From: Myripristis murdjan
Taxonomy: Eukaryota
Assembly (NCBI RefSeq): GCF_902150065.1
Contig: NC_043987.1
Coordinates: 1,561,386-1,625,385 of the forward strand
Direction of reading: 5' to 3'
DNA: 64,000 nucleotides
Below the pieces are notes generated by a model. It ran no database searches and was not told the origin of the DNA. It was given only the letters and a program-made list of their open reading frames with translations. A program made the position numbers and the translations under genes. Below are positions 1-42,277 of this stretch, in pieces (position 1 is the stretch's first letter; every line of letters starts with the position of its first letter).

Positions 1-1
1 T

Positions 2-118
2 CTGGCAGAAGAGAAGAAGTTCCAGCAGCACATCCTGGGCCAGCAGAAGAAAGAGCTGACTAGTTTATTGGAGTCCCAGAAGCGGCAGTACCGCCAGCGC
101 AAGGAGCAGCTGAAAGAG
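2..118 (+). CDS. taok2: TAO kinase 2 internal coding exon, truncated at the window edge ([39 protein letters not shown])
   Basis: Frame-2 translation matches the conserved TAOK coiled-coil region. It continues in frame into the next exon ([19 protein letters not shown]). The 3' boundary implies a GC donor (AG|GCATGA), so the end coordinate is approximate. Confidence 0.8.
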
Positions 119-1131
119 GCATGAGCCAAATCCCAATGTTCATACTGGTGCATTCCTGCCATTTAAATCCCAGGGCACTCATGTTGCACATGTTCATCAA
201 ACATTAACACAGGTTTTAGTTTATTTACACAGGAGTTTACATTTGCTGAGGTTAGAGCCACATATGTGTACATCTTCCACCTTTCTCCTCTGCTAATATG
301 ATTGATGAGAGGAAATGATTCAACGAAACAGCTTTATGGATATTTTATCTTAAAGCTTTTGAACATTGGCTCATATCATCTATCAGTACATTCAGCCCAA
401 AAACATCAGTAATGGCCTCAAAAAATCCACATCAGTTGGACCCTAGTATTTATCATAACATTAAAAACATGCTAATATACATATATTATAAAGTTACTAT
501 ATAGTCTTATTTATATTATATATTTCATATTTTTATTAATATTATAAATTTTTATTATTGTTACTATTATTATAGAATGTGTTATTATAATTACATACTT
601 AGAATTGTATATATTATATACTTATATATTATATACTACTATATTTTGAATTCTTTTGTGGGAGGGTGGTTAATGTTTTGTAATTATTTTAAAAAATGAT
701 AATTTTAGGAGAATTTTCTCATAATTTGTTGTATTTTTTTTGGCAATTTTCTGATGATTTTGTGGTTTTCTTAGAATTTTTTATAATTTAAAAGATATAT
801 TTTTTGCTAATTTTCTGGTTATCTATTTTTCTCAACATTTTCGGTGAATTTTTTGATAATTTTCTTCCAATTTAATCTGAAATATTTATATTTTTTTGAA
901 AGTTGTCGATTGAATTTCAAAAGGTTGCAAGTACTAGTTAATGTTAGTGTCAGTATGCTCAATCAGGCAGAGGTGATGTAATGAACCGTCACGTAGCTTC
1001 TGTCAGGCAATTTGTTACAGGCCTGTCCTGAGCTTTGTGATAGTTGTCATCCTGATATGTTGTTTTGGATTTGTGGCACTGAATTTTCACACTCTGCTAC
1101 CCTCTCCTCGTCTTTTCCCTCTGCCAAGCAG

Positions 1132-1335
1132 GAGCTGAACGAGAACCAGTCAACACCTAAGCGGGAGAAGCAGGAGTGGCTGGTGCGTCAGAAGGAGTGT
1201 CTGCAGCAGATGCAGGCAGAAGAGGAGGCCGGCCTGCTGAGGAGACAGAGGCAATACTATGAGCTGCAGTGTCGCCAGTACAAAAGAAAGATGCTTCTGG
1301 CCCGCCACAACTTGGAGCAGGATCTGCTCAGAGAG
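1132..1335 (+). CDS. taok2: TAO kinase 2 exon ([68 protein letters not shown])
   Basis: Acceptor ccaagcag|GAG, donor GAG|gtaaac. Near-identical to the remembered TAOK2 segment [31 protein letters not shown]. Phase 0, 204 nt. Confidence 0.9.
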
Positions 1336-1678
1336 GTAAACTGCTCACTTGCACACCAGGACCTCTTCTTGACCAAAACAGATCTGGCTGTCTAGCTCAG
1401 TAGTCCCCAACCACCGGTACCGGTCCACAAGACATTCCAGACCGGGCTGTGCAGCGTGGGAAAAAACGTGCCACACAACCTATATGCATGCATTTGTTAG
1501 ATCACGTGTGATTTGGCACCCGACTGTAACTTTTTTCCCGTTCCTTTTGATGCTGTCATTAGTCAAAGTCACAGAAAAAAATACATATATAAATTAAAAA
1601 TTAAGATTGGTGGAAATGCCTGAGTCATAATAATGTAGATGATTAAAAATATTTACAAATAACTGACAGAAAACATTA

Positions 1679-1820
1679 GGTTGGGTGCCCCGGTAGCTCA
1701 CCAGGTAGAGGTGTGTACTAAGTGTCAAGGTGAAGTCCTTTAAATGCAGTGGCTTGGGTTCAGATCCAGCCCAGGCCATTGGCTGTCCTGCTGTTGACTT
1801 TGAATAAAACTTTGGAAATT

Positions 1821-1851
<31 letters not shown>
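1679..1851 (+). mobile_element. tRNA-derived SINE with poly(A) tail
   Basis: tRNA-like head GGGTGCCCCGGTAGCTCACCAGGTAGAGG (A-box-like). B-box-like GGTTCAGATCC. Terminates in a roughly 28-nt A run at 1824-1851. Confidence 0.6.
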
Positions 1852-1854
<3 letters not shown>

Positions 1855-2037
1855 CATAAGAGAGAAAATAATCAAATAAATTCAAATTAAGTAAATAATT
1901 TACTGTGACATAATCAACATAAATCCACCCTTATGTTCCCATACTGACTGCAGGCTCTTGTCTGAACAATAATTTTCTATTACATGACAAATTTCAAACA
2001 TCCATCTAATATCTGCCTATCTGCCAGACTCTAATAC

Positions 2038-2902
2038 AGGGTTCCCACACGTCCTGGAAAACCTGGAAAACCTGGAGAATAATTGACCAATTTTCCAGTC
2101 AAAATTGAGCTGCAGTGCTTCTCTGCTTCTAGCCGGCACAGCGCCGGGACACAGGGAAGAGGCACCCTTTAAATGAGGAGGGTAGGCAGTGAAAATGTTG
2201 TGCTAATGTTGTTAGCATACATGAATGGGATTCAACATGGCTAAATTAGCATTACAGCTATCAATCAGTCAATATTTTGCAACTTTTAAACAAATCAAAT
2301 GTAATTCAAAGGGGTTGATGAAACAACATAGGAAATAAAGTAAAAATGTACTTGGTAACTAATGCACACTGAGCAATAAAATATGAGTACATAAAATAAT
2401 GCAAGATCAGGAATAAAAGATAAAAATCAATACAATGGTGATAAAAAGAAATATAATATGGTAAAATAAAATTGAGGCTACTTAAACAGAAAATCAATGC
2501 AATCTAATTATAAAAATATCATTTATTTAAATATAAACAATAAAATATAGATAAAGCTTCAGTTAGTTATATGACACTGGAATCTGTGGGTGTGATTGTA
2601 CAATTCTATGATAAATTTCTCATAATTTCTAAGAATGTAAGAGATTATTTCATAGATATGTTATAGCCATAGACTGCACATCTTTTAAATCAGACCTCTG
2701 GGGGTGGGAGAGGAATAAACATAGCAATCTGGGTAAATGAACAAAATGTAAGGTACAACTGTAGAAAAGAACACTTCTCCAAAGCACTTGGGGCCAAGGG
2801 ATGTATTAGTGTACAGTGTGATAACTTGACTCATACTGTAGCAGCTGAAAATGTCCTGGAAAAGTCCTGGAAAATAATTTCTAGAAAAGAGTGGGAACCC
2901 TG
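2038..2902. mobile_element. Non-autonomous TIR DNA transposon (TIR CAGGGTTCCCAC..GTCCTGGAAAA)
   Basis: About 60-bp terminal inverted repeats at 2038-2100 and 2845-2902. Flanked by direct TAATA on both sides. A second copy of the same termini lies at about 60041-60340. Confidence 0.6.
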
Positions 2903-3374
2903 TAATAGATGTGCCGCCATGTCGTCATGCTATTACTGATGTCTCCCAGAGTCTCCCTCTTAGACCACCTTTTTTCATACATTAGATCTCCTTGAATTTT
3001 CTATATTAATTTCTCAGTATCTTTAATTTGTTGAATTAGATCCCACCTTTTAATATTTTCCGGGGCCAGTTTTTGTAATGAGTTTCAAGGCAGTAATTCT
3101 TAATATTCTTATGAGATATTCAACTTCACCATCGACCACCCCAACTGGGGATTTCACCAGCAACATGAACTCAGTAAGTAATATTAATATCCATTTTCAA
3201 AATAAGGGCAGTTTCTTCAGATATTTTCCCAATACAACTGCAAAGCAGGGCACAACCGAATATGGCTATAATTTGCAAGGCTTTCCCCTTTTAGTATTTG
3301 TTCAAAACTTGTTTATCCCTTCTTGGTGTGATCACTTTTGCTTCTCTCCTGGTTTCTCCTCACCCCTCCACCAG

Positions 3375-3614
3375 GACCTGAACAAGAAACAGACCCAGAA
3401 GGACCTGGAGTGTGCCATGCTGTTGCGGCACCACGAATCTACCCAAGAGCTAGAATTCAGGCAGCTGGGTTCAGTGCAGCGAACTCGAGCCGAACTGATC
3501 CGAACACAGCACCAGACCGAGCTCACCAATCAGATGGAGTACAACAAGCGACGTGAGCAGGAGCTCCGGCAGAAACACACTGTGGAGGTCCGGCAGCAGC
3601 CCAAGAGCCTCAAG
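3375..3614 (+). CDS. taok2: TAO kinase 2 exon ([31 protein letters not shown]...RQQPKSLK)
   Basis: Acceptor ctccaccag|GAC, donor AAG|gtgagg. 240 nt, phase 0. Strong match to TAOK1/2 (QKDLECALLLRQHE...[21 protein letters not shown]). Confidence 0.9.
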
Positions 3615-5044
3615 GTGAGGAGGACGATGAAGAAAGCAAGTTTTAGTACCCAGCCCCACTAATATGTTTAAGACTGTGTGTGTCTGTGTCTTGGCAAACA
3701 AAAGGACTGGTTACATAATGACGGTGACCACAAAAGGACAGGGGATGTGAAACCAGGGGCATGTGCTATGGGCAAGCCATGGACCCCTGGAGCAATACTA
3801 TGCTAGGTGGGGCTTCAGTACACATTTGAAATTTCATACAATGAAACAGTTTTTGCGGTCCACATACAAACAATTTTCCAAATGCAGAAAAGTTGGTTTA
3901 TTGTGGAAGAACTGATGCACAGCTAACAGAAATATGTTAGCCTGAGATTTGCTATGAATTAGCTTTCAGTAATTTTAAAATAACTTTAATAGCACGCAGA
4001 TTATTTTAAAGGCTGAATGAGATGGATTTGTTGCTTGCTGTTTGTAAACACAGCATTCAAAGATGGCCCCCCTCCCTGGCTAAGTTAACCACCAGCCGCG
4101 AGGTTTTGTTTCCTAGGATGGTGATGGAATGAAATGACCATCTAAAATGTAAAACATTCTATAGCAGTCCTAGTAAAATTGGCCTGCCAGCACCTACCTG
4201 TCCAGCAGAAAACAGGCCAACAGTGCCTTGCTCTTCATTCTCATCCTGTCTCTCAGTGCTGAAAGCCAATCCCAGGTTCACTCTTGTTGTGGAACAAACT
4301 TTGCTTGGCGCTTTGCTTCACTAGATTTCATTTTTTCTGCTGTCCACGTCTATGATTTTCATAGTTCCATATTGGATGTTGTGCGTTGATCTGGCACTGT
4401 GCGCTGTTATTGGCTGGCAGCTACACACCAACTTCCCAAAGACACCCAGAAGAGTCCCGACCTCAGCAAAAAGAGAAAATCTGTGCAGAGGGCAGGGTCT
4501 CTGGAGATACACCAACACACTTCTAGTGGGACATAAGTAATGATTGACAGGGATTATTTTTGTATGAGTCTATATATTGTTTTTTAGGGAAATCATACTC
4601 ATTCTGCTTTTAATTAATTTGGTGCATTAACTTTAACTTAACTCTTTGTTGTTGCTGCCAGCTATGCACACTGTGACAGTTAGAAATGCACCAAACAACC
4701 AGGTGCTTGATTTGTCACTAGGGAATTTTCAATTTCAAAAGTTATTCAAACAAACTCTTCTGCTGATGAGGTGACATTAGTGAACACTACAGCTGTTGCC
4801 GTGGTAAAGTGAACCAAAATGCTGTGAACCAAAGGTCCTCAATGATCCACGCCAGTTCTTCCAAATTCCATATTCCTGTCCCACATGGGTGCTTGGCCTC
4901 TTCCTATTGCTGCTTGCAGCTAGAGTTTTTTTCTGTAAAGGTGTTATCTCTGTGAACTTTTTTTAGAGTACTTATAAAATTTGATTAATACGACAATTAT
5001 AGTTATCATGATGAACTAATTCCAGTTCCTACTAACTTCAACAG

Positions 5045-5257
5045 TCCAAAGAGCTGCAGATCAAGCGTCAGTTCCAGGACACTTGTAAGATCCAGACTCG
5101 ACAGTACAAAGCCCTTCGGAACCACCTGCTGGAGAGCACACCCAAATCTGACCACAAAGCCGTCCTCAAACGCCTCAAAGAGGAACAAACACGTAAGCTG
5201 GCCATTTTGGCTGAGCAGTACGACCACTCCATCAACGACATGCTGTCCACACAGGCT
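5045..5257 (+). CDS. taok2: TAO kinase 2 exon ([71 protein letters not shown])
   Basis: Acceptor ttcaacag|TCC, donor GCT|gtgagt. 213 nt. Nearly identical to the mammalian TAOK segment. The tool's minus-strand ORFs here are antisense artefacts. Confidence 0.9.
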
Positions 5258-5289
5258 GTGAGTAAGGCAAGGAAACCTCCGTGCACCGT

Positions 5290-5880
5290 CTACACCAAAC
5301 CCACTCACAGCATCCACTGCTCTTCCACAACATGATCACAGAATCCACTGCTCTTCAACAACATGATCACAGCACCCACTGCTCTTCAACAACATGATCA
5401 CAGCACCCACTGCTCTTCAACAACATGATCACAGCACCCACTGCTCTTCAACATGATCACAGAATCCACTGCTCTTCAACAACATGATCACAGAATCCAC
5501 TGCTCTTCCACAACATGATCACGGAATCCACTGCTCTCAAACATGATCGTGGACTCCACTACTCTTGAACAGCATGATCACAGAATCCACTAATCATAAA
5601 CAAGATCACAGAATCCACTGATCATAATAAACAATATCACAGAATCCATTATTCATAAACAAGATCACAGAATCCACTATCATAACTTGATCACAGAGTC
5701 CACTGCTCTTCAACATGACTACAGAATCCACTAATTGTCCACATGATCATAGAAACCACTGCTCCCAAACATGATCACAGAATCTGCTGCCCTTCAACAA
5801 CATGATCACAGAATCCACTAATCGTGAGCATGATCATAGAATCCACTGCTCTTCAACATGATCACAGAAAGCACTGAGAA
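5290..5880. repeat. Minisatellite, roughly 31-bp unit (CATGATCACAGAATCCACTGCTCTTCAACAA), about 19 copies, in a taok2 intron
   Basis: Direct tandem repetition is visible, with unit variants (ACAGCACCCACTG / ACAGAATCCACTG). It starts immediately after the taok2 exon donor at 5257. Confidence 0.9.
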
Positions 5881-6202
5881 TGAAACAATTCTAATAATAA
5901 AACCTTTACCTAACTTGAGAGATTTCCCAGCAAAAGAGGATGTTCAAGAGAATCAGAAAATTTTAATATGCTGTATTGATTGTACTGATAATGTTAACAT
6001 TTAGCAACCCAACATTTCTAAACCAAAGCCGGATTTAGATAAAAGGTTTGTATTTGCACCTGTATGCCCAGCAGTGGTCCAGACCCCAGTGAATTGCTCA
6101 GTAACAGTGTTTTATAACATTGCATCCACCATTTTAGCCCCAAAAACTCACAGCAGATTGCTGTCTACTGATGTGGAGGCTTGGTCCCGTTTTCTCCCAC
6201 AG

Positions 6203-6385
6203 CTGCGGTTGGATGAAACCCAGGAGGCAGAATACCAGGTGCTGCGGATGCAGCTGCAGCAGGAGCTGGAGCTGCTCAATGCCTACCAGAGCAAGATTAA
6301 GATTCACACTGACTCTCAGCACGAGCGAGAGACCAAGGATCTGGAGCAGAGGGTGTCTATCCGCAGAGCGCTGCTGGAGCAGAGG
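6203..6385 (+). CDS. taok2: TAO kinase 2 exon ([61 protein letters not shown])
   Basis: Acceptor ttctcccacag|CTG, donor AGG|gtatga. 183 nt. Conserved TAOK coiled-coil. Confidence 0.9.
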
Positions 6386-7029
6386 GTATGAACATGTTGA
6401 AACTGGTTGTGACTGGCAGCAGCACAACTGCAGGTCAAACCAGTTTCACACTAATCGCATTTCCATCAACCATTTTTTCATGCACATTTTGCCATATCAA
6501 ATTAAAAAATGCTTGATGGAAACAGCAAATGTCAATAGAAATTTCAAAAATGCGACAGAAGGTTTATATGCTCTCTTGAGATGGATAAACTTTTTAGTCA
6601 AAAAAGAAATGTTATCATGGTGGATGACGGTAACATCGACAGGTTCAGGTGGAAAGATGAAGAAAACAATACATTTGTCTATGCAAAGAATAGAACGGTG
6701 ATATTAGACAGGAAAAAGCAGTGCAACACAACCGTTAAAGTTTTGGAAATACAAATACAGAAATCCATCTCTGCAAACTTAGGAACAGCTATGGAGCCAG
6801 CATACAAGCTATTTGCCTGTAGAAACATTACATCATCATTCCACACCCAAAACACCACATGTCATTTGCTTAAACTACTATACCAGTGATTTTGAATGTT
6901 TGGCCCCTTTTCTACTGTTACTGCTACTAAAGAAACTTACTAAAGATTTCACAACATACAATCAAAATCCCAGCATTTTCAGTTTTAAATTTTTGGAAGA
7001 GACATCCACCTCATAATGTTCTGCTTATG

Positions 7030-7402
7030 TAGCTAACAAACTTGTCACCATTCAGAAACCATGAGCAAGCATTTCTTCTTCTGTTGTCCTGCAGAGAAAC
7101 CGTTTCACTCTGCCCAGTTTCAAGTCCTCAAAACAAAACAGTGCTGTTGCTTTTAGGAAGATAATGTGGATGACTTTGTTATGGTGATGGAATACTGGTG
7201 AGGCGAAAGTTTGAAGTCTCTGAAAATAAATATTCATATTGTACTGGAATGAATTGAAACTGATGGTTTAATAAAAGGTAGGAAAAATACCCATGTTCCA
7301 AAATACAATGCATTGCTTTCTTTTAGAAGAGATGACCAGAAATGTGAAGTATATACATTTTGTAGCTATTAGGCTGAACATGTAGAATCACTGGTATGGT
7401 GC
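7030..7402 (+). mobile_element. MITE family A (termini GGACCATACCAGTGATTTT), 5'-truncated copy
   Basis: Aligns to the copies at 42491-43070 and 53087-53661 (same orientation) and to 22409-22944 (reverse complement). Ends ...GAATCACTGGTATGGTGC. Confidence 0.7.
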
Positions 7403-7508
7403 TTTGAAAAGGCCTCATCATTAGCAAAATAATGATCAATTTGAAAATCACTTTATCTGTGTCTATCTAATATCTAACGTTCACATCTGTTTGTCTCCTG
7501 TCCATCAG

Positions 7509-8408
7509 ATTGAGGACGAGATGCTCTCTCTGCAGAATGAACGTTCGGAGCGAATCCGGACGCTGCTGGAGCGCCAGGCTCATGAAATTGAGAATTTCGA
7601 CTCGGAGAGCATGCGGCTTGGCTTCAGCAACATGGCGCTGACCGGGATCCCTGCCGAGGCCTTCAACCAGGGCTACCCCAACCCCAGCCCCTCATCAGGG
7701 TCCAGTGCCTGGCCGTCGCGTCCCGTTCCCCGCTCGGGCAGCCACTGGAGCCACAGCGTGCAGAACTCCGCAGCGCCACCCTCTTGGCGCAGCCAGAACA
7801 GCACCGCAGGGGGCGGCGGCTTCAGCCGAGCGGAGTCCATCATCTCGGCTCACGGGCTGGGCCGGGACAGCGAGCTGGGCCTGAGTGGGCGGGGCCACTC
7901 CTCAGCCTCCTCCTCCTCGTCATCTTCCTCTCATCACCAGCAGCAGCACTACCTCCCCCAGCACTATCAGCACCACCAGAGCACTCCGCAGCTGTACCGC
8001 GACACCCATGAGCGTGACCTCAGGGAGCGCGAGCGAGCCAGGGAGTGGGCAGGAGGGGGAGGCCACTATTCCCATCACCCCCAAGGCCGTCACCACCTCT
8101 CCTCCCACGCCTCAGCCCAGTCCCTGTCCCTCCTGCCGCCCCCGCCGCCGCCTCCCCCCATCTCCCTCTCCTCCTCCTCCCCTCCCTCCTCTGCCTCCTC
8201 CTCTTCCTCGTCTCAGGGAGGATATGGAGGCGGGGGTCTGAGCGTCAGGGGGCCCAGTCTGATGGCCCTGAGGAACAGCCCCCAGCCACTAAGGAGGACG
8301 GCCTCCGGTGGGCCAGGGGGTGGTGGCGGGGGGAGCGAAGGGGGGCTCAGTCGGAGCACATCAGTCACCTCTCACATCTCCAATGGCTCCCACCTCTCCT
8401 ACTCATAG
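7509..8408 (+). CDS. taok2: TAO kinase 2 terminal coding exon with TAG stop ([40 protein letters not shown]...[20 protein letters not shown])
   Basis: Acceptor tcctgtccatcag|ATT. 299 codons plus stop. Matches the TAOK2-beta C-terminus pattern ([60 protein letters not shown]). It carries a long Ser/Pro/Gly/His low-complexity insert. Confidence 0.9.
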
Positions 8409-31461: not shown

Positions 31462-31496
<35 letters not shown>

Positions 31497-31500
31497 CCAC
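31080..31500. repeat. Complex AT-rich tandem repeat with (TA)n microsatellites
   Basis: Repeated units tataaacagtatat / taaatat, plus pure (AT)n runs at about 31148-31186, 31385-31403 and 31463-31495. Confidence 0.85.
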
Positions 31501-32639
31501 AGAACCTGATGCCCGGGACTGGGATTCATGGAACTGTTGGACTTGGTCAGTGCAGAATTAGCTTAGTGCTAAACACGCATGTTAGTAATATGATGGAAAG
31601 TGATGAGGGGCGTCAGCTGCAAAAACATGGGAAAAAGGTGATGAGCAAATTAGCAAGATGCAAGATATATGTAAGAAGTTACAAGATAATGACAATAACC
31701 AGAAAATGAAAATGACCAAAGATTAGTTGAAAAAAAAGAAAAAAAAGAATAGCAAACAATTACTTGAAATTACCTTAAAATTAGAACAAAAATGTATATA
31801 TACATACATATATACATATAGTTTGTTGTCATTTAAAAAGTATTATTTAAAAATATATACACAGAGAGAAATATATTTTTATCTCAAAACAATTACCACA
31901 AAATTGTTTTAAATAATATTATAATAATAGCACAAGAAATTTACCAAATTTACATTCCCCTAAAAAAATCAAAAGTAGGGTGAAATAAAACCTTCCACAA
32001 TTCAAAGGGTTAATAGTGGGCCACACTTTGACTCTTCCAAAAGAAAAAAATACGTGCAACTTGGCGGCTCTTAATGTGAGCACCCCTAAAGACATGATTT
32101 GAGAAATCTGGGAGGGTCTCTAAAATTTGTATTGACAATATGTTGAGTTTTCTTTTCCATACAAAACTGGGAGGTGGTCGCCTTTCTTAAATTTTGAGCC
32201 CAAGCACAATTAGACACATTTTAGACACATTTAACCCTAAATGCGATAGAGTTACTATAGGAATACTACAGAAATATTACAGGCAGCAGTATGAGCGTGC
32301 TGCGTTGCAGATACTACAGAAATATTACAGGCGACAGTGCAGTTGTGTGCTCATTGAACCCTCCTCTCTTCCTATCCACCTGAGCAGAGACCCTCTCACA
32401 CCTGCTGGAATCATCAAATAATCTGAGCCTCAACTGACGTGTTCGAGTTGAGCCTGTAATAATTTACAGATGTGAAATACGTCTTCAGTAATTGACACAC
32501 ATCAAAATTAAATGCCATTTTATTTTTACTTTATTATTGTACGTCAGCATTTATTTTTTAAATTTTATTTTTATTTATTTTTTTTTTGTGTGTGTGGAAG
32601 GATGACTAGCAAAGTAAGAATATCATAACCGCCTGTTTT

Positions 32640-32658
32640 ACTGTGCATGACCATACAT

Positions 32659-32694
<36 letters not shown>

Positions 32695-32700
32695 CCTAAA
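32640..32700. repeat. (CT)n microsatellite
   Basis: tctctctctctctctctttctctctctctctctcc. Confidence 0.9.
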
Positions 32701-32842
32701 GTGATGCGTGTTTATTTGCAAATAGAGCGGGAAAGTGAGATCCGATCTCAAAATTCATGAAGTTTCAAATCTATTTGAGCTTTCGGTTTGCCAGAGCCAT
32801 AGCTAGGGAAGAATCACCTTAATTTGCATATCAAAGCTAGGA

Positions 32843-32882
32843 CACACACACACACACACACATACACACACAGACATACAAA
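32843..32882. repeat. (CA)n microsatellite
   Basis: acacacacacacacacacatacacacacaga. Confidence 0.9.
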
Positions 32883-33980
32883 TTAGAGGTGAAGTGCGAG
32901 ACTGCTTCAGTGTCTCTGAAGTCTGGCCTTTTATAGAAAGAGTCTCAATGGCTTTCTCTGCTTCCCTGCTTTGCCTGTAATCTGCATGTGTTGGTGACAG
33001 CTGGGGGAGGGGGGTGGGGGGCTGCATGGTAGAAATACAAAGGGACGAGGCTGGGAAAAATCAAAATGACCCAGCATGCCCTTGCTTTGAATATCAGGCT
33101 GGAAAAGTGCTGGGTGCCATTCATTTATAGTAACAGTAGCAAAATTAGGGATCGACCATTCATCAGTCTCAGCTGATTATTGGGGCTGATATTAAGGATT
33201 TTTTAATAACCTTTTGGAATTTTGATTGATATGACGGGCAATATGAAAACCACTCAGCTTCTGCCTCTCCATCTGAAAGACAGCGGAACAAAACCGGTTT
33301 CTGATAATACGGCAATAATTTTCATTTCCCTTTTCAGTGCATTTATATCTAATTTAGTTTAACAGAAAAAAACATGGTTCCGTTTTTACTGGATTTAAAT
33401 GTTTGTGAAAGGCGACTGAACGGAGCCTGATCCAACATCACTGATTTGACCTTTAAATATTTAATTTCAGTAATTAGTAATGTAATTTTCTTGTCTTTTT
33501 TATATCAACTTTTCAGTTTTTTTTGTTTTTTTTTTTCGGAATTTTCTGCATTTATTTTCTTGTTTTTTTGGGAGGGTTATTCTTTTTTAAATTAACTACT
33601 GGGTTTGAATCTGACCTCAGGCCATTTGCTGCATATCATCCTCTCTCTCTGCCCTGCCTTTCCTGTCTCTCTCCACTGTGACTGTCAAATAAAGTAGAAA
33701 TGCAAAAACTAATAATAATAATAATAACAATAAAAATAATAATAATTTAATGTTAATTAAACATAAGTTAATTCAAAGCAAGGTTTGTGTTGGCATTTCT
33801 AATACTGTAAATTGCGACACACATTTCAAATTTCTTTCAAATGAATATTGAAAAATCAGTATCAGTCAGTCCCTTATTTACATTAAAATGCATGGGTTCT
33901 TACTTTAGACACACCAGCACATTGCCTAAAATTTCAATGTAAAATATAAGGCCGTGTTGTCGCCTTTGTTTTTCTTCCAG

Positions 33981-34384
33981 TCAAACCAGTCACCAAACCC
34001 AGCCGGCCGGCTCACATCTGTGCCACGTGCAACAAGCAGTTCAAAAACAGCTACAACCTGCGGCGGCACCAGTCGGTACACACGGGCATCAAGATGAAGG
34101 ACCGAGCCGCCCGCGAGAAAGAGGAGGGGGGGAAGGGAGGAGGAGGAGGAGGACGAGTGGAGAGGCAGACGGTCCCGCTCTCCCTGCTCCATCTGACTCT
34201 GCCGCCTGTGCCGCCTCCGCCCCCCGCCGCCCCGGCTGCACCAGAGACTTTGCCCCAGCACGGGCAGCACAGCAATCAGGAGGGTCAGCCCGTCTCTGTG
34301 TCCATCGCCCCGGCAACCGTAACAATGGCTGCACCACCTCAACCCATCCAAGCTGCTGTTGTTGTTGTGGGTTCCATGGAGCAG
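33981..34384 (+). CDS. maz: maz exon 3: first C2H2 zinc finger plus Gly/Pro-rich linker (KPVTKPSRPAHICATCNKQFKNSYNLRRHQSVHTGIK...VPLSLL...MEQ)
   Basis: Acceptor tttcttccag|TC, donor CAG|gtgtgt. Matches human MAZ GPYICALCAKEFKNGYNLRRHEAIHTG...MVPLSLLSVPQLSG. 404 nt, phase-consistent. Confidence 0.85.
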
Positions 34385-36627
34385 GTGTGTGTGTGTGCTT
34401 TGAGGAAATGGGCGTATAGAGTTCAATGCAGAAAATATTGTTAGACAAAGGCAAAGATATGTAACTGTATGTATATCCATGAGAGAAATGGTTGCCACAG
34501 TGGTTACATCACTGTGTCTGGCAGTTACTGGTCTTTAAAAAATAAGCCAGTCACCACAGCTAGTCATTATGTTTCATTAGTATTATTTTTATGGCGGATG
34601 TCTGACAAGAGAAGTCAGACAAGTGTTTAACCCAAGTGTCACTTTTCTTTGACCAGAAATGGCAGCATGTGGGCATGTAAAGGGATAGTGCATCCATTTT
34701 AAAAAAAAAATTCTATCACTTCCCCCTAACTGTTATGTAGGACAGTAGTGCTGCTGTCTTCTTCTCATTAGCCAACTTTCTACTGTCGCACCAAAGGCAG
34801 GCGTGCCAGTGCATGCCACAGCCAGTGGTGTTTCCATTGTCACTTTGGTGGGGCTGCTTCTAGGTGCTAATGGCCCAGCGAATGGCTATGGCTTAGAGAG
34901 GACTAACCGAGGTATGAGGCGGAGTTAAGGGTCAACCGCGGGGAGACGGTGCAGCTGACAAGTACAGATGTCAGCGCAGCAGCTCGCTTTTGTAGCAGAA
35001 AAATAACAGACAAAAAAAATGGAGAGCAAGTGGCAGTCCTGGTCAGACAAGGACATCAGGGCTCTGCTCACAATCTGGACAGAGGATAATGTCCAATGTC
35101 AAATCAATGGTGTTTGCTGAAATGAGGACGTTATGTGATATACAGTGAGAGAGCTGGCAGTGGTGTGGATCCAACGCACAATAGGACAGGTCCGCCAAAA
35201 ACTGAAAAAAACAAACAAACAAAAAAAAACCTTAGGTCTCAGTACAAGGCAGTTAAAGCACACAGCTCACAAAGTTGCATCCAAAGGAAAAAAAAACATT
35301 CTATTCTGTAGTAGTTAGTTGGTATGCAGGTATGCAAACTTTAACCACTCGCTTCCTACTTCCCACCTGTGTGCATTTACACTGAGGCAGCATGTGATGG
35401 GCTGTTTATAGGGCAAGCCTACGGGTCTTAAAGATATATTTTTCCTTTTGCCAACATGCAGAAAGAGCCAGTAACTTCTGAACCTCCTGTATCAGTCCAC
35501 ACCAGAGCAGCAGCAGCCACCACAGAAAAGGAAATAGATTGCTTGAGTTTGCTATAAGTTGTTTTCTTCATAGAACACATGCACACATGTTGCAGGACAA
35601 AAATAACAACTTTCTTTGGAGTACTAAAAGTAATGACAAGTAATGTTGTAGCTAACGTTTTCTTTTCCTCCACTCCGCTCTATCACACGTTTCCTGCACC
35701 AGCACAGAGAGCTTACACTGTACAAGAAAGTAGTTCTTCCATGGATCCTTTTAGTTCAATGGGCAACATTTTTTCTAATATGCTACATATCATCAAACTC
35801 AAACTTTGTTTATTTAACAGTTTGGCTGGATGAACATGTGGTGGGCCAGTTTGACCCCACTCAGTGTTTAACATCTCTAAAACACATGGTTAACATAGTT
35901 TTGTTTGCTTCATACTTAACTACTTTTCCTAATTTAATGGGAACAAGTGGATAAACATGAAATTAACATGCTGATGTGTTTTCGGTGTCCTGTCCTGTAG
36001 GTGTTTCATTGGGATCTATTTGACCACAGGCTTCTCAGCTGTATGAAACATAAGAAATTGTGACATTTTACACATTTGTTTTAGTTGTTTTGGAAGACTT
36101 AAAAACTATAACATGGCATTTTTAATCTTCTTCAATATATCCTTCTGATGTATTAGGAGGAAGAAACATAAAGTACAAGAAACATAAAGTACTTGACACA
36201 TAAACTTGGGTAACAGTTTTTATTATCATAATTTTTTGGAGGTTTAAATCACTAGGGTCAAATAACCCCAAATGATTGAAAAATGTTAGTAAATTTGAAG
36301 TTAACAGAAGGTTAAGAATGTTAGCCGGGGAAACTCCACCTCAATGGCAGGAGGCTAACAGTTAGCATTTGGAGCATCCAGTCGGTATCCAGCACTGACA
36401 TAATACCTGATTTGTCTGATTGGGTTAAATTACATTTAGCTGTTGATATTGGATTTTTGTAGGGGGAAAAATCCTCTGATACCTCTGTACTAGCTTGTTA
36501 TCCATGTAATATCTGATACCTGTGTCAGTAGCAGCATTACCTTTGCCACTGAACACAGTGAAACACTCAGACAGTTCAACTAGGGACTTGTACAAAGGTT
36601 CACAACCCCTGTGCTTCTGTCCCGCAG

Positions 36628-36902
36628 AATCCCAATCCCAATCCCAACCCCATCCCCAACCCCAACCCCAATTCCAACCAGGTGAGGAAGAACCATGCGT
36701 GTGAGGCTTGTGGAAAGGCCTTCAGAGATGTCTACCACCTCAATCGTCATCGCCTGTCCCACTCGGACGAGAAGCCCTACTCTTGTCCCATCTGCCAACA
36801 GCGCTTCAAGAGGAAAGACAGAATGAGCTATCATGTCCGTTCACACCAAGGCGGAGTGGAGAAACCCTACATCTGTCCTCACTGTGCCAAGGCTTTCTCC
36901 AG
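36628..36902 (+). CDS. maz: maz exon 4: (NP)n repeat plus zinc fingers 2-4 (VRKNHACEACGKAFRDVYHLNRHRLSHSDEKPYSCPICQQRFKRKDRMSYHVRSHQGGVEKPYICPHCAKAFSR)
   Basis: Strong acceptor ttctgtcccgcag|AAT. The (AATCCC)n stretch is in frame and encodes NPNPNPNPIPNPNPNSNQ. An alternative in-frame acceptor lies at 36681/36682 (ccaaccag|GTG). Donor CC AG|gtatac. Matches human MAZ RIRKNHACEMCGKAFRDVYHLNRHKLSHSDEKPYQCPVCQQRFKRKDRMSYHVRSH. Confidence 0.8.
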
Positions 36903-36929
36903 GTATACCAGAAGATTGGATGAAACTTT

Positions 36930-37370
36930 AAAAGTGCAAGTTAAAGTTATAGTTTGGATCCTTACCTATATAGTGGTATTTATTGCTCCATGCAAGTGTA
37001 ATACATCCACCAAGACCACCAAGACACCTCCTTCCCTGTGGCAAGTTTTTTGGAGCAGAAGCTGAAAAATAGTTTTGAAGGATGCACAACAGCACACACT
37101 TGATGTGGTTTCATTTCAGAGCTCTTTCCAGCCCCTTGGCTTCAAAAATGGCAGCACTGGTTTCTGCCCCAGAATTCGCACTATATCGCCTTGGAACTTG
37201 GAAATAGGGCAATGTGATACGGTCAAAAAAAAAAAAAAAAATTCAAACTTTGTTACGATTCATGATTTTAATAGATTTTTCTTCTTTTTCACGAACTAGT
37301 TATAGTAGGTGATGTTTATCTTTGTGGGCATCATATATTACGCTCACATGGAGCAGCAAATACCACTATA
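36930..37370. mobile_element. MITE family C (TIR ...CCTATATAGTGGTATTTATTGCTCCATG / CATGGAGCAGCAAATACCACTATACAGG) directly downstream of maz exon 4
   Basis: Inverted termini at 36958-36990 and 37335-37372. The interior is similar to 55567-56283 and 61540-61700 (GATGCACAACA[GA]CACAC..TTG motif). Contains an A17 run at 37223-37240. Confidence 0.6.
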
Positions 37371-38628
37371 CAGGTAAGAATACAGCCCTCACTTTATCAC
37401 TTTAACACCGACAAACATGAAACCATGAAATTTAAGACATAAGCAAATTCCCATTAACAAAAAGGCCTTCAGCAGGAAGGTTGGCAGCCTCTACACAGCC
37501 TCACTGTGTTTACATTGGGTCAGATTTTGAGGCAAATGTGCTGGATTGCTTTATGGCAACAGCAGATTGTTGGAGGAGTGAAATCCTCATGGAAAAAAAC
37601 ACCTCCAACATGTTTTTCCCCTTTAGTGACGTCACAGACATCATTTATGTGCCTATTATTTAAGGATATTCCCGCTGAATGCACCAGCTCACATGGCAAC
37701 TCGTGGTTTTGGATAGTGAAATCAGGATTCAGGAGCATAAATGCCTTTCTGCCAAAACTGGAAACCACAACACCAAAAAGCTGTGCTGAAATCCTGATGT
37801 ACAAGCTACACATGCTCTATTAACAGTGAACAGGAGACAGATTTTGCGCACTCATACAATATTCATCTGAACTCCAACATCCTAAGGACTTTCTATTTTA
37901 GTAGTGCTGTCATTTCCACACCAGATACCATCCAGTCACATTCTCCATCCTTCCCTGTTAATTCTCTGTGGAGCTGAGTGCCACTGCAAAGCTGACAGAC
38001 AAACTCCTCCCACATGTGTAAACTGGGAGACAGAAGTGAATATACAGTTAGGGGTAGGAATGAAGTTATTCAAGTTCTTATCAGATGTATATCCTTTAGG
38101 GATGGGAATCGGCATGATTCCCAGTACTTGAAATTTAATTCTAATTATTTAATTAATTTGTTTAATTTGATTTAAATTAATGACAACATATTAATTCAGG
38201 GTCAGCATGATGACATGAAAATTGTTGAACCAAAAAAAAAAAAAATCAGAATTTGTAAATGAATCATTGTTTTTTGTTTGTTTGTTTGTTTGTTTTTATC
38301 CCATCCATAATACTTTTTATATAAAAGCAGTTAAATCTAAGCACATGTCAGCAAGAAAATCATCATCATCTAAACTTTATTATTATTACTTTATTTAGCA
38401 AGATGCTCTGTTAAAATCCAGGTAATTGTGCAATTTTAACAAATATCCTGCTCTCCATCAGTGCCAATCTTTTTCTCGTGTATCAGAATGGCATATTTCA
38501 AAACCAAAATTCAGTGAATTTGATTGTGGACAGTCCGTTTCAGATTTGTGAGTATAAGCTATTGTAAACATTAAAATATTTTGTGCTGTTTAATCTTTAA
38601 TTTTAATGTTTTTTGGGGTTTGTTTCAG

Positions 38629-38692
38629 ACCAGACCACCTCAACAGTCATGTACGACAGGTGCACTCTACAGAGAGACCCTTCAAGTGCACG
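38629..38692 (+). CDS. maz: maz exon 5 (PDHLNSHVRQVHSTERPFKCT)
   Basis: Acceptor ggtttgtttcag|A, donor ACG|gtaatg. Identical to human MAZ RPDHLNSHVRQVHSTERPFKC. Confidence 0.9.
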
Positions 38693-39560
38693 GTAATGTC
38701 CACATCTACTTACAGGGGTTCAGCTGATGCAGGTTTTCGAAGGCTAGTGGCCAATATTTTGTGCTGTAGGTCAGTGTCTTAATATTGAGTACTTTCAGGC
38801 CAATCAGATGCAAATACTCAGTGTCAAAATTCTGTTCTTGCATCATCTTAAACAGGACATGAACATGACAGGATACTAGATAGATAACTTTATTGTCATT
38901 TCAAGGACACGTGTAATCGAAATTTCATTGCAACTGGCTGAAAACAGCAGTTAAAAAGTACAATTGTCAAACATAAAAGTGCGATAAAGGTTCCGAGCCA
39001 GTGCTGCCGCAGCCACACAGGGCACCGCCATCAAAACACAACAGTGCTGCTCAGTGCTACTAAAGCTCTGTTGAAGTTGAATAAGATCCAAGTATTTTAA
39101 AAGCACCCGTTCAGGAAACCGCTTCTTATAGACAACCAGAGAAGTATTAATCAGTTCTACAATAAATACTGTTGTAATCAAAAACTGTCGTCTGTCGTCT
39201 ATCAAAGGAAGACAAAAGTGACTGATCAGATTTTTCATAAAAGGCCAATTTTAGCTAACTCCCTCATATCCATCTACCTGTCTATATACAGCTAGGTCCT
39301 TAAGTATTTCTACTTCAGGCAGTCATAGACAGCCAAGGATGTCTGCACTTCAATCACGTCTTGATTACTCCATTTCAAATCCACTGTGGTGGTGTCCAAG
39401 GCCAAAATTATGAATATAGTGTCACTGTCCAAATACTTTTGGACCTAAATGTACCTTCAGGTAGTCATTCCATGTATACTTAATATTGTACAAGGGAAAA
39501 TAATAACATTTGTTTGTTTGTGTATATGCATATATATGCACATGGTCATGGCTTTCACAG

Positions 39561-39732
39561 ACCTGTACATCTGCGTTTGCCACACGGGATCGTCTTCGCG
39601 CCCATCTGATCCGTCACGAGGAGAAGGTGCCATGTCACATCTGTGGCAAGCTGCTGTCTGCTGCCTACATCACCGACCACATGAGGGTGCACAATCAGTC
39701 CCAGCATCACGCCTGCCACCTTTGCAATCGCA
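39561..39732 (+). CDS. maz: maz exon 6: zinc fingers (TCTSAFATRDRLRAHLIRHEEKVPCHICGKLLSAAYITDHMRVHNQSQHHACHLCNR)
   Basis: Acceptor ggctttcacag|ACC, donor CGC A|gtaagt. Matches human MAZ CEAAFATKDRLRAHTVRHEEKVPCHVCGKMLSSAYISDHMKVHSQGPHHVCELCNK. Confidence 0.9.
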
Positions 39733-41204
39733 GTAAGTGACACTGAGACACTGTGTCTGAGCACTACAGTTTGTTTTCAGGACAGAAACTTTTCAGGCAT
39801 CCAGGGCATTTCAATAACAAGGAACCAGTTCTGTTCCAGTTTGCAAACCTAATTTTGAACCGTTCTGAACATTTCAACCAAAAATAAATTGGTTAAGAAC
39901 CTGAAAAGTTTGTTTCTAGTTGGAACCCAAAAATTGTAGGACCTCAAGTGGGAACTGTGACGACAACAACAACAGGGAGTGTGTCTTATTCTATAGGGTA
40001 GGTTAGAGACAACAGAGAAATCAGAGAGCGTGCAGTTGCTGCTAGTTAACACCTTGGTTCCAAGAAGCCAAACAGAAGTGGTTCAAGAACCAGAACTGTT
40101 TTGGTCAGAAAGTGCTAGCAGTTTTTGATGACATTATTTTCATCTGGCCAAACAAACTGAGCTAAAGATTTTGAGAATTAATAACACAATTACACATTGC
40201 ATGGCTAAATTTTTCTTAACCTTTCACTGTCAGCTGATTTTGCAAGTTCATTTTTTATTGACTTGAAAAACACACCCCAACTGAAGTGTTATTGGAAGCC
40301 ACAAAAAGGCGGGACCAATAATCATCCTTCAAGGAAGTACAGGCATGACTTAGGTGATGATGACAGTAAGACACAACACTGTAATGAATTTGAAAATAAA
40401 TACTATAGAACATCAATATAGATTTTCCTCGCAAAAATAGCAAGAATCATATACCACCATGCCAGCAAGCTAGCAATATGCTCACCAATATGTTTGCTCA
40501 CTTTCACCATCACAGTTGCCGTGGTTTGTCTAGCTTCTGCGCTGTCATAGTTCATAATATGGTTTGGTTGTCTGATTGGACGAGTTAGCTAATGATAGAC
40601 GGATGGTTGATCCAATCACCTGTTATGTGTTTTGTAAATGCCCGTTGCTGCCGCCCCTTTACCAAATGTTCTGAACTCAGAACATCAGACGCTGGTTCGT
40701 GAAGTAAACAATGGAAACGAAATCAGAGTGTAACTGTGCCGGCCAGTTGTACCCACCCTCAACAAAAACTCCTGCCCATGCTTGTAAGCAGACAGAGGGC
40801 ACCAAATACAAAATGCCACAAAGTTAGCTTTTCTACAGTGGGCCACTATGGGGCGAGATGTAATTTGGCAGTTTGAATATCACAATATCATAATAAGTGT
40901 TGTCTTTCTCAGTTTTAAAGACTAGACCAGTGCATGTTTAGCATAATGTCTACTAAATGTATATACTATATATTCACTATTTGCTAATCTTGTTTTAAAC
41001 TCCATCATTTTTCATACCTGTTTTCCAGTGTGTTATTATGAATCCCACCAGAGTTCTGGGCAAGATATGCCCACCAGCATAAAATGTGTTGGCCTCTTGC
41101 TCATTCACTAAATCAGAATTGACAAGCCCTCATTCAGTCATAACCCAAACCTTAACTTTGTGGGTACATCTTGCCCTAAATTGGTGTCTCATAATAATGC
41201 TTAT

Positions 41205-41636
41205 CCAGCCATTGGTTTCCATTCATTCCACTACGATATGAAAATGAACTTTGAGAGACTTCAGAACTTTCTCCACGCCAGTATTCCATCACCGTAATAA
41301 GTCCTCCACATTAGTTTCCCTAAAAGCAGCAGCACTGCTATGTTTTTAGGAAAACAATGATTCAGTTTTGAAATTGGGTGGAGTGAAATGCTTCATCTGC
41401 TAGAAAATAGTCCACAGGGAAACAGCCAATTATCAGTCTGTGGTTTAGGAATGTTGACGATTTTGTTAGTTGCAGAAGTGGAGCGTTATAAGATGGCTGT
41501 TTGAACCAAAAAATGTAATTTAAAAATCAAGAGACTTTGAGTATATGTTGTGAAATCTTTTGTACCCCTGCATGAATTGCAAAATTGTTACAATACAAAA
41601 TGTGGGAAAATTATAGCAAATCAGTCATATGGTCCT
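41205..41636 (-). mobile_element. MITE family A, truncated copy (reverse orientation)
   Basis: ccattggtttccattcattccactacgatatgaaaatgaac...cagcagcactgctatgtttt... aligns to the 22409-22944 copy. Terminal ..ATATGGTCC is a degraded TIR. Confidence 0.65.
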
Positions 41637-41948
41637 TAAGGCTGCATATAGTAAAGGAATATAATTTTCTGGACTTATTAGACTGTTCTTCCTGCTGTTA
41701 TTTGCTTCTACCTGCTTGGTCATCATATCCCTGTTACTAATGATTGCTTATCAGAAATCTCTTGTGTGCAAATATCTTATGAAAGCACTAACATTCATCC
41801 CAACAGTATCTGCACAATATTGATATCAAGGCATTTCATCAAACATATTGTGATATTTGATTTTGTCCATATCACCCTGCACTAAATTGGGTCACAAAAC
41901 AAACTTGGTCTGAGCACCCCCTGAAATGTTGTGTCTCATATTTTTCAG

Positions 41949-42277
41949 GTTTCACCACCCTGACCTACCTGCGTGTCCATGCCCAGAAGCACCACGGGCA
42001 AGAGTGGAAGGAGAGTGGCGGGGCGCGAGGGGGCTTTGGGGGGACAGGTGCCGGCGGGGTACTGCTGTGCCAGCTGTGCGGGGTGCAGTGCAAGACAGCC
42101 ACACAGCTCCAGGGTCATATGGGCACCCACGCCAATCCTCAGGGTGACCCAAGCCCCAACCCAACAAGCACGAGCCCCGTGGGCACTACCAGTGTTGCCG
42201 TCACAGTGTCCAGTGCTAGCACAGTTGGACTGCTGGTAACTGACTGCTCCAGTATCGCCCCCCAGCCCCACAGCTAG
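41949..42277 (+). CDS. maz: maz terminal coding exon: alternative-type C-terminus with extra zinc fingers (SFTTLTYLRVHAQKHHGQ...LLCQLCGVQCKTATQLQGHMGTH...PQPHS*)
   Basis: Acceptor atttttcag|GT (phase 1, A+GT=Ser). TAG stop at 42275-42277. Resembles the human MAZ alternative isoform C-terminus (GFTTAAYLRIHAVKDHG...LCKLCSVHCKTPAQLAGHMQTH). Confidence 0.8.

What the first reader, a model, noticed from the sequence alone, without database searches (positions are those of the whole stretch)
1..42277. Compact taok2–cdipt–maz block: 16p11.2-type synteny with the intervening genes missing
In human 16p11.2 the order is MAZ–PRRT2–PAGR1–MVP–CDIPT–SEZ6L2–ASPHD1–KCTD13–TMEM219–TAOK2. Here taok2, cdipt and maz lie on one strand within 42 kb. 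The 9-kb and 4-kb spacers between them contain only TE debris (Tc1, LINE RT, MITEs) and no recognisable exons of the interposed genes. Either this fish lost or relocated those genes, or this is the ohnologue-depleted duplicate of a teleost 16p11.2 pair. A nemo-like kinase gene follows maz. Human NLK is on 17q11 near TAOK1, in the paralogous region, so this suggests an ancestral TAOK–MAZ/VEZF1–NLK linkage.
Basis: partly seen in the sequence, partly recalled or inferred. Interest (0 to 1): 0.55.

Follow-up and report, generated by a model that had tools for sequence, protein, structure and literature searches.

The report
Conserved fish taok2–cdipt–maz–nlk1 gene block
This stretch of soldierfish DNA carries four neighbouring genes in an order shared by all major teleost groups, and three of them lie in the same order in the bowfin, so the "missing" human 16p11.2 genes were not lost here and the finding is ordinary.

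Summary
The window is Myripristis murdjan; its exons match that species' annotated CDIPT and MAZ proteins exactly. On the + strand it holds the 3' exons of taok2 (1-8408), cdipt (17589-22149), maz (26640-42277) and nlk1 (45626-59027). The spacers contain a Tc1 transposase fragment, a LINE reverse-transcriptase fragment, a palindromic element, one copy of a dispersed repeat, and conserved UTR/promoter-like DNA. They contain no exon of SEZ6L2, ASPHD1, KCTD13, TMEM219, MVP, PAGR1 or PRRT2.

The same same-strand block, even more compact, occurs in pipefish, milkfish and arapaima. The taok2-cdipt-maz part also occurs in bowfin, which did not undergo the teleost genome duplication. The paralogous teleost block (taok2-mazb-TLC gene-pagr1) is the depleted copy: it lacks cdipt and nlk1.

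The NLK idea is partly supported. The kinase is nlk1, an old second NLK paralogue also present in shark, sturgeon, amphibians and reptiles. I could not determine whether the fish order or the tetrapod order is ancestral.

Verdict: ordinary conserved microsynteny in an annotated genome; low interest.

The parts
1..8408 (+). 3' part of taok2 (TAO kinase 2), cut off by the window start. Coding exons lie at about 2-121, 1123-1338, 3372-3617, 5042-5281, 6197-6388 and 7494-8405, with stop TAG 8406-8408.
   Evidence: The exons are collinear with Pkinase-domain genes of 1086-1248 aa in pipefish, bowfin, arapaima and milkfish. The best named relatives are RefSeq TAO2 or TAO2-like proteins. The stop codon was checked.
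10147..10936 (+). Conserved non-coding block 1.7-2.5 kb downstream of the taok2 stop, most likely taok2 3'UTR.
   Evidence: blastn gives 69-74% identity to the corresponding position downstream of taok2 in Chanos (L012 2313-2937), Arapaima (L011 4386-4879) and bowfin (L002 6051-6189). That it is 3'UTR is an inference.
13742..14017 (+). Fragment of a Tc1/mariner transposase (C-terminal DDE part).
   Evidence: Pfam DDE_3, E 3.4e-05; the open frame was seen.
14643..15099 (.). Palindromic, MITE-like element.
   Evidence: Inverted repeat with 139-nt arms, 96% complementary, plus inner perfect 60-nt arms.
15204..16368 (+). Degenerate LINE reverse-transcriptase fragment, interrupted by an AT-rich repeat at about 15565-16017.
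   Evidence: Pfam RVT_1, E 9.8e-06, on the 16018-16368 frame. The upstream frame 15204-15563 has an RT-like sequence. A related RT is also present in sterlet locus L009.
17589..22149 (+). [quoted passage not shown]
   Evidence: Exact match to M. murdjan CDIPT P0001, 213 aa, Pfam PF01066.
22394..22930 (.). One copy of a dispersed repeat of about 0.5 kb (SINE/MITE-like). Other copies lie at 6938-7408, 41201-41590, 42544-42952, 51178-51303 and 53140-53676.
   Evidence: Direct and inverted repeat families D2, D4, D5 and I2-I21.
25911..26170 (+). Conserved GA-rich block about 0.5 kb upstream of the maz ATG, probably maz promoter or 5'UTR.
   Evidence: blastn gives 72-79% identity to the same position upstream of maz in pipefish L001 and Chanos L012. 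The function is inferred.
26640..42277 (+). maz (maza-type Myc-associated zinc finger protein), complete coding sequence in seven coding exons. It is stretched to 15.6 kb by large introns.
   Evidence: Exact match to M. murdjan MAZ P0121. The first exon MDTSWSNFLFQ is conserved with pipefish and bowfin.
45626..59027 (+). nlk1 (nemo-like kinase, type 1), complete coding sequence in about 11 exons.
   Evidence: 98% identity to the cluster P0241 'nemo-like kinase, type 1'. In the NJ tree it falls in the nlk1/'NLK2-like' clade with 100% bootstrap. ATG and stop were checked.

Best explanation
The window shows an old, conserved piece of gene order: taok2 > cdipt > maz > nlk1, all head-to-tail on one strand. 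It comes from the soldierfish Myripristis murdjan. The taok2-cdipt-maz part already existed before the teleost whole-genome duplication. It is present in bowfin and in every teleost locus fetched around cdipt or the window-type maz (the exception is the paralogous mazb locus described below).

No gene was removed from between these genes in this fish. Since at least the common ancestor of bowfin and teleosts, the genes that lie between MAZ, CDIPT and TAOK2 in human have not lain between them in this lineage.

After the teleost duplication the two copies lost different genes. The copy in this window kept cdipt and nlk1. The other copy kept taok2, mazb, a TLC-domain (fam57b-type) gene and pagr1.

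In Myripristis the block is about twice as long as in other fish. This is because transposon fragments entered the spacers and the introns grew; no genes were added.

Shown: gene identities, gene order in six species, absence of interposed exons, and the timing of the maz duplication. Inferred: why the block stays together (short intergenic DNA holding the UTRs and promoters of neighbouring genes leaves few harmless breakpoints), and whether the fish or the tetrapod order is ancestral.
For: - Exact identity of the cdipt and maz exons with M. murdjan proteins.
- The same order and strand, with exon-by-exon collinearity, in Syngnathus typhle L001 (spacers 2.5, 1.7 and 2.2 kb), Chanos L012 and Arapaima L011. 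The taok2-cdipt-maz part is also present in bowfin L002 (spacers 4.6 and 3.1 kb).
- cdipt and maz have consecutive locus tags in two elopomorphs, and lie on contigs of equal length in more than 15 other teleosts.
- The paralogous block in Parambassis L003 runs from the taok2 paralogue to mazb with no cdipt, then to a TRAM_LAG1_CLN8 gene and a PAXIP1_C gene.
- In the MAZ NJ tree all teleost a and b copies form a clade (98% bootstrap) that excludes bowfin.
- Pfam and tblastn find no foreign exons in the spacers.
- Conserved UTR/promoter-like blocks lie inside the spacers.
- Zebrafish 16p11.2 homologues are known to be present but reordered on chromosomes 3 and 12, with taok2 and fam57b in two copies (PMC3484866).
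Against: - The compact order was not seen within 10 kb either side of cdipt in the two deeper ray-finned outgroups sampled. Sterlet has a NUFIP2-domain gene upstream of cdipt, and bichir shows nothing recognisable. The block is therefore shown only for bowfin plus teleosts, not for all unduplicated fish.
- Only one holostean was examined; gar was not.
- Whether nlk1 follows maz in bowfin is unknown, because the locus ends 2.5 kb after maz.
- I did not locate sez6l2, asphd1, kctd13, mvp, prrt2 or tmem219 in this species. Their presence is inferred from zebrafish.
Confidence: 0.87

Rival explanations
1. Lineage-specific event: Myripristis, or a narrow group around it, deleted or moved the seven genes that sit between MAZ, CDIPT and TAOK2 in human.
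For: The spacers are rich in transposon debris, which can accompany rearrangement.
Against: The same gene-free junctions occur in pipefish, milkfish, arapaima and bowfin, with even shorter spacers.
Confidence: 0.02
2. Ohnologue depletion: before the teleost duplication the region had the human-like content, and this copy lost the interposed genes while its sister copy kept them.
For: Teleosts do have two copies of the region (maza/mazb and two taok2). pagr1 and a fam57b-type gene lie next to mazb on the other copy. Duplicates on zebrafish chromosomes 3 and 12 are reported.
Against: Bowfin, which was not duplicated, already has taok2-cdipt-maz with nothing between them. The sister copy also has nothing between taok2 and mazb and has lost cdipt itself. 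pagr1 lies beyond maz, not between maz and cdipt.
Confidence: 0.04
3. The fish order is derived. The human-type order (MAZ-PRRT2-PAGR1-MVP-CDIPT-SEZ6L2-ASPHD1-KCTD13-TMEM219-TAOK2) is ancestral for bony vertebrates, and rearrangements in the stem of bowfin plus teleosts brought taok2, cdipt and maz together.
For: Sterlet and bichir do not show taok2 or maz within 10 kb of cdipt. Echidna has the mammalian CDIPT-MVP convergent pair. From memory, the orientation of CDIPT relative to MAZ and TAOK2 differs between human and fish, so at least one inversion separates the two orders.
Against: There are no data from shark, coelacanth, lungfish or amphibian loci at the needed resolution. The 10-kb flanks are too short for the large sterlet and bichir genomes. 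The tight taok2...nlk1 linkage mirrors TAOK1-NLK on human 17q11.2 (from memory), which fits an old linkage better.
Confidence: 0.35
4. Assembly artefact: a collapsed or chimeric stretch brought three unlinked genes together.
For: None found.
Against: There are no N runs in the window. The gene models are intact and match the annotated proteins exactly. The same order is found in five independent assemblies.
Confidence: 0.01

Closest known systems
Zebrafish homologues of the human 16p11.2 interval (Blaker-Lee et al. 2012, PMC3484866)
   Same: The same gene set (taok2, cdipt, maz, fam57b, pagr1 and others) is present in a teleost. The paper states that gene order is not conserved with human, that kctd13-sez6l2-asphd1 are grouped elsewhere, and that taok2 and fam57b exist as duplicates on two chromosomes.
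   Different: The parts of the paper I read do not describe the taok2-cdipt-maz-nlk1 string itself, its presence in bowfin, or nlk1 as part of the block. Its position table was not available to me.
Human 16p11.2 BP4-BP5 interval
   Same: It contains MAZ, CDIPT, TAOK2, PAGR1 and TLCD3B/FAM57B. The gene list in chromosomal order is given in PMC11211608. The mammalian CDIPT-MVP neighbourhood was seen directly in echidna.
   Different: Seven genes lie between MAZ and TAOK2. From memory, CDIPT is on the opposite strand to MAZ and TAOK2. There is no NLK-type gene in the interval.
Human 17q11.2 paralogous region (NLK, TNFAIP1, ALDOC, SEZ6, NUFIP2, TAOK1, CORO6; gene content from memory)
   Same: A TAO kinase and a nemo-like kinase are linked, as taok2 and nlk1 are here. 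A NUFIP2-domain gene sits next to cdipt in sterlet.
   Different: The distances are megabase-scale rather than a few kb. From memory, VEZF1 (the MAZ relative) lies far away at 17q22. The NLK there belongs to the other NLK clade.
Teleost sister block taok2b-mazb-fam57b-pagr1 (Parambassis ranga L003)
   Same: Same strand and order for the taok2 and maz paralogues. A TLC-domain gene follows, as it follows nlk1 in Arapaima.
   Different: It lacks cdipt and nlk1. It carries pagr1 within 10 kb.

Membership tests
CDIPT orthologue | CDP-alcohol phosphatidyltransferase domain (PF01066) in a protein of about 213 aa that is orthologous to annotated CDIPT. | tested here: met
   The window exons reproduce M. 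murdjan CDIPT P0001 exactly. PF01066 is on record for it. There are 775 homologues at E<=1e-30, and in the listed top 120 hits most non-polyploid species appear with a single full-length protein.
MAZ orthologue (teleost maza type) | C2H2 zinc-finger protein that is collinear with annotated MAZ and groups with maza rather than mazb. | tested here: met
   Exact match to UniProt M. murdjan 'Myc-associated zinc finger protein' P0121. Proteins named 'maz a' in Oryzias and Cyprinus are 69-82% identical, whereas the mazb type is about 65% identical. The NJ tree places the window gene with the a-type.
TAOK2 orthologue | TAO-family C-terminal coiled-coil region and long tail; the closest named relatives are TAO2 rather than TAO1 or TAO3. 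| tested here: met
   The best named hits are RefSeq TAO2 or TAO2-like proteins from mudskipper, Centroberyx, grouper and caecilians. One submitter-named 'TAO1-like' protein disagrees. The orthologous gene products are 1086-1248 aa.
TAOK2 orthologue | N-terminal STE20-type kinase domain. | not testable with these tools
   The 5' part of the gene lies outside the window. The orthologous genes in L001, L003, L011 and L012 carry Pkinase.
NLK type 1 (nlk1), as opposed to NLK proper | Groups with fish nlk1 and apart from the clade containing the proteins annotated as NLK. | tested here: met
   98% identity to the 'nemo-like kinase, type 1' cluster, against 84% to the M. murdjan NLK P0275. The NJ tree gives 100% bootstrap for the nlk1/'NLK2-like' clade and 97-100% for the NLK clade.
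Conserved microsynteny block predating the teleost genome duplication | Same gene order and strand in distant teleost lineages. | tested here: met
   Percomorph (Syngnathus), holocentrid (this window), otocephalan (Chanos) and osteoglossomorph (Arapaima). Locus-tag adjacency in two elopomorphs.
Conserved microsynteny block predating the teleost genome duplication | Same order in a non-duplicated outgroup. | tested here: met
   Bowfin L002 has taok2 > cdipt > maz, all on the + strand, with spacers of 4.6 and 3.1 kb and collinear exons. This was not seen within 10 kb either side in sterlet or bichir.
   Bowfin has no genes in these positions. The sister copy has none either and lacks cdipt.
Ancient TAOK-NLK linkage (16p11.2/17q11.2 paralogon) | The nlk1-type gene is linked to taok2, cdipt or maz outside teleosts. 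| tested here: inconclusive
   In sterlet, nlk1 and cdipt are about 320 kb apart on one 10.2-Mb chromosome. The contig lengths on record are equal for axolotl CDIPT and NLK2-like, and for Rhinatrema TAO2 and NLK2-like, which suggests same-chromosome location. No maz was found within 10 kb of the gene in sterlet or tortoise.

The most novel reading that the evidence does not exclude
The string taok2-cdipt-maz-nlk1-(fam57b) may preserve the ancestral jawed-vertebrate arrangement of the 16p11.2 paralogon, with a TAO kinase and a nemo-like kinase as close neighbours. Human 17q11.2 (TAOK1...NLK) would then be the sister remnant. Mammals would have lost the 16p11.2-side NLK (nlk1) and reshuffled the interval that is now a disease-associated copy-number region.
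Probability: 0.35. Interest if true: 0.3.

Novelty: already known. Interest (0 to 1): 0.12.

Why it matters
It matters little. The genes are annotated in this species, and the non-collinearity of teleost and human 16p11.2 was published in 2012. Any synteny browser would show this block.

It has two modest uses. First, anyone modelling 16p11.2 in fish should know that taok2, cdipt, maz and nlk1 are immediate neighbours with only a few kb of shared intergenic DNA, so deletions or regulatory edits at one gene may touch the next. Second, nlk1 marks the 16p11.2-type paralogon in non-mammals, which helps in reconstructing how the human interval was assembled.

Tried and rejected
- The look-up of encoding contigs for the M. 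murdjan CDIPT itself returned nothing, so I could not inspect the rest of this species' chromosome or look for the seven 'missing' genes in it.
- The Heterodontus NLK2-like gene was also not on record.
- The bichir locus gave only low-complexity repeats around cdipt. Its called 332-aa upstream 'gene' looks like a repeat artefact.
- The sterlet and tortoise nlk1-type loci showed no neighbour within 10 kb.
- Passing raw DNA references with stop codons to the Pfam scan failed. I repeated the scan with stop-to-stop pieces joined by X.
- Literature searches for nlk1 evolution and for a 16p11.2/17q11.2 paralogon paper found nothing specific.
- The supplement with zebrafish gene positions was not held.
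- I prepared the minus-strand ORFs outside the spacers for a Pfam scan but did not run it. The orthologous loci show no minus-strand genes inside the block.
- I considered and rejected the idea that the zinc-finger gene is VEZF1 or PATZ1: it is an exact match to annotated MAZ and has MAZ-specific motifs.
- I considered and rejected the idea that the kinase at the window start is TAOK1: the RefSeq names, product length and synteny all point to TAO2.

Full report
**What is in the window.**

The window has no N runs and its composition is typical of a fish genome. Translating the + strand shows four genes.

- cdipt. Its six coding exons (17589-22149) reproduce the NCBI Myripristis murdjan CDIPT protein (P0001, 213 aa, PF01066) without a single mismatch.
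- maz. The exons from 30563 to 42274 reproduce the UniProt M. murdjan 'Myc-associated zinc finger protein' (P0121) exactly. The short first coding exon, MDTSWSNFLFQ followed by GT, lies at 26640-26672 and is conserved in pipefish and bowfin.
- taok2. Positions 1 to 8408 hold the last six or more coding exons of a TAO kinase. The best named relatives in a search of 1.8 billion representative proteins are RefSeq 'serine/threonine-protein kinase TAO2(-like)' proteins. The orthologous genes in other fish encode 1086-1248 aa with a Pkinase domain.
- nlk1. Positions 45626 to 59027 hold a complete gene that is 98% identical to the cluster 'nemo-like kinase, type 1'.

Start and stop codons were checked directly. 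The only caveat is that taok2 is truncated by the window edge.

**The spacers.**

I scanned all six frames of 8409-17588 and 22147-26639 against Pfam, using stop-to-stop pieces of at least 25 aa and E up to 1. Only two families appeared:

- RVT_1 at about 16018-16368;
- DDE_3 (Tc1-type) at about 13742-14017.

None of the domains of the seven human interposed genes appeared (CUB, Sushi, BTB_2, Vault, MVP_shoulder, Asp_Arg_Hydrox, CD225, PAXIP1_C, TMEM219).

It found nothing in the window (best E 0.33). The MVP sequence proved usable as a control because it hit echidna MVP exons at 2e-22.

Repeat analysis added a palindromic element (14643-15099) and a dispersed repeat of about 0.5 kb that has six copies in the window, one of them at 22394-22930. 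No Rfam family or tRNA is present.

Part of the 'spacer' DNA is not debris. The block 10147-10936 aligns with the region downstream of taok2 in milkfish, arapaima and bowfin, so it is probably taok2 3'UTR. The block 25911-26170 aligns with the region upstream of maz in pipefish and milkfish, so it is probably maz promoter or 5'UTR.

**Comparison with other species.**

I looked up the genomic loci of CDIPT and MAZ proteins from other fish. The pattern is the same in all of them, with every gene on one strand. Exon-by-exon collinearity with the window was confirmed by tblastn.

| Species (locus) | Gene order | Spacers |
|---|---|---|
| Pipefish, Syngnathus typhle (L001) | taok2 (1157 aa) > cdipt > maz (450 aa) > nlk1 (476 aa), within 21 kb | 2.5, 1.7, 2.2 kb |
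| Milkfish, Chanos chanos (L012) | taok2 > cdipt > maz > nlk1 | 4.0, 2.5, 3.4 kb |
| Arapaima gigas (L011) | taok2 > cdipt > maz > nlk1 > TLC-domain (fam57b-type) gene, within 22 kb | 2.9, 2.1, 2.9, 2.6 kb |

Further support comes from annotation. cdipt and maz have consecutive locus tags in Albula goreensis and Synaphobranchus kaupii. In more than 15 other teleosts the two genes lie on contigs of identical length.

The block is therefore present across teleosts. The Myripristis version is actually the least compact one sampled: maz spans 15.6 kb here, against 2.1-5 kb in the others.

**The outgroup test.**

Bowfin (Amia ocellicauda) is a holostean and did not undergo the teleost genome duplication; this is established knowledge. 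Its locus (L002) shows the 3' end of taok2, then cdipt after 4.6 kb, then maz after 3.1 kb. All three are on one strand and their exons are collinear with the window.

The compact order predates the duplication. It is neither a loss in this fish nor the product of ohnologue depletion.

The test has limits. In sterlet and bichir I saw neither taok2 nor maz within 10 kb of cdipt. Sterlet has a NUFIP2-domain gene upstream, and the bichir flanks are mostly simple repeats. The order is therefore demonstrated for bowfin plus teleosts only.

**The sister copy.**

The MAZ search showed a second teleost clade at about 65% identity, the mazb type. The locus of one member (Parambassis ranga, L003) has this order:

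- a taok2 paralogue (1248 aa);
- mazb, 4.2 kb further on, with no cdipt between them;
- a TRAM_LAG1_CLN8 (fam57b-type) gene;
- a PAXIP1_C (pagr1-type) gene on the other strand.

The split is therefore teleost-specific.

The simplest reconstruction of the pre-duplication order is taok2-cdipt-maz-nlk1-fam57b-...-pagr1. The window copy kept cdipt and nlk1, and the sister copy lost them. This agrees with the zebrafish report that taok2 and fam57b are duplicated on chromosomes 3 and 12. The same report says that gene order is not conserved with human, and that kctd13, sez6l2 and asphd1 form their own group elsewhere (PMC3484866).

**Tetrapod comparison.**

Echidna has CDIPT followed by a convergent MVP gene (Vault domains), which is the mammalian arrangement. 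From memory, human CDIPT lies on the opposite strand to MAZ and TAOK2, whereas in fish all three share a strand. The two orders therefore differ by at least one inversion as well as by the interposed genes. I could not determine which order is ancestral.

**The NLK remark.**

The kinase after maz is not the orthologue of human NLK. Myripristis has that gene too (P0275, 84% identity). In an NJ tree the window gene groups with fish nlk1, a sturgeon gene, and the 'NLK2(-like)' genes of a shark, amphibians, turtles and a snake (100% bootstrap). The NLK-proper clade is separate (97-100% bootstrap). nlk1 is therefore an old second NLK paralogue. No mammalian member appeared among the best 120 hits, and from general knowledge mammals have a single NLK.

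Its tight linkage to maz is shown in the window and in the three teleost loci whose held sequence reaches past maz. Outside teleosts the evidence is loose:

- sterlet nlk1 and cdipt are about 320 kb apart on one 10.2-Mb chromosome;
- equal contig lengths on record suggest that CDIPT and NLK2-like in axolotl, and TAO2 and NLK2-like in Rhinatrema, share a chromosome;
- no maz lies within 10 kb of the gene in sterlet or tortoise.

It is not proven here.

**Verdict.**

This is an ordinary conserved block of four annotated genes that dates back to at least the common ancestor of bowfin and teleosts, enlarged in this species by transposon fragments. It is already visible in public annotation and consistent with published zebrafish work. 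Interest is low. The only mildly novel thread is the use of nlk1 as a marker of the 16p11.2-type paralogon.

Noticed in passing
window 5270-5893: A tandem array with a period of about 31 bp, found as 14 overlapping copies of a 126-nt unit, inside a taok2 intron.
   Followed up: no
window 14643-15099: A near-perfect palindrome with 139-nt arms (96% complementary) and inner perfect 60-nt arms. It looks like a MITE or foldback element and lies between the Tc1 and LINE fragments.
   Followed up: partly
window 6938-7408, 22394-22930, 41201-41590, 42544-42952, 51178-51303, 53140-53676: One dispersed repeat family of about 0.5 kb in both orientations, at 73-91% identity. Copies lie in introns of taok2, maz and nlk1 and in two intergenic spacers.
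   Followed up: partly
window 26640-42277: maz spans 15.6 kb in this fish, against 2.1-5 kb in pipefish, arapaima, milkfish and bowfin. The introns have expanded greatly while the coding exons are unchanged.
   Followed up: partly
window 10147-10936 and 25911-26170: Two conserved non-coding blocks. The first, downstream of taok2, is alignable as far as bowfin. The second, upstream of maz, is GA-rich and alignable to pipefish and milkfish.
   Followed up: partly
L009 1-9810 (sterlet, Acipenser ruthenus OV754652.1): A gene with a NUFIP2 domain lies head-to-head just upstream of cdipt. From memory, human NUFIP2 is the neighbour of TAOK1 on 17q11.2, so this may be another paralogon marker retained in sturgeon.
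   Followed up: no
protein hits: The public names are inconsistent. Several otophysan proteins that group inside the teleost maz clade are named 'vascular endothelial zinc finger 1'. nlk1-type genes are named 'NLK2' or 'NLK2-like' in tetrapods, a shark and some fish.
   Followed up: partly
L011 21001-22206 (Arapaima) and L003 18157-20788 (Parambassis): A TLC-domain (TRAM_LAG1_CLN8, fam57b/tlcd3b-type) gene follows nlk1 in arapaima and follows mazb directly in the sister block. No exon of it was found in window 59028-64000.
   Followed up: partly
window 7494-8405: The last taok2 exon encodes a tail of about 300 aa that is very rich in Ser, Gly, Pro and His. It includes runs of S, of P and of G, and then a conserved C-terminal motif, [19 protein letters not shown].
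   Followed up: no
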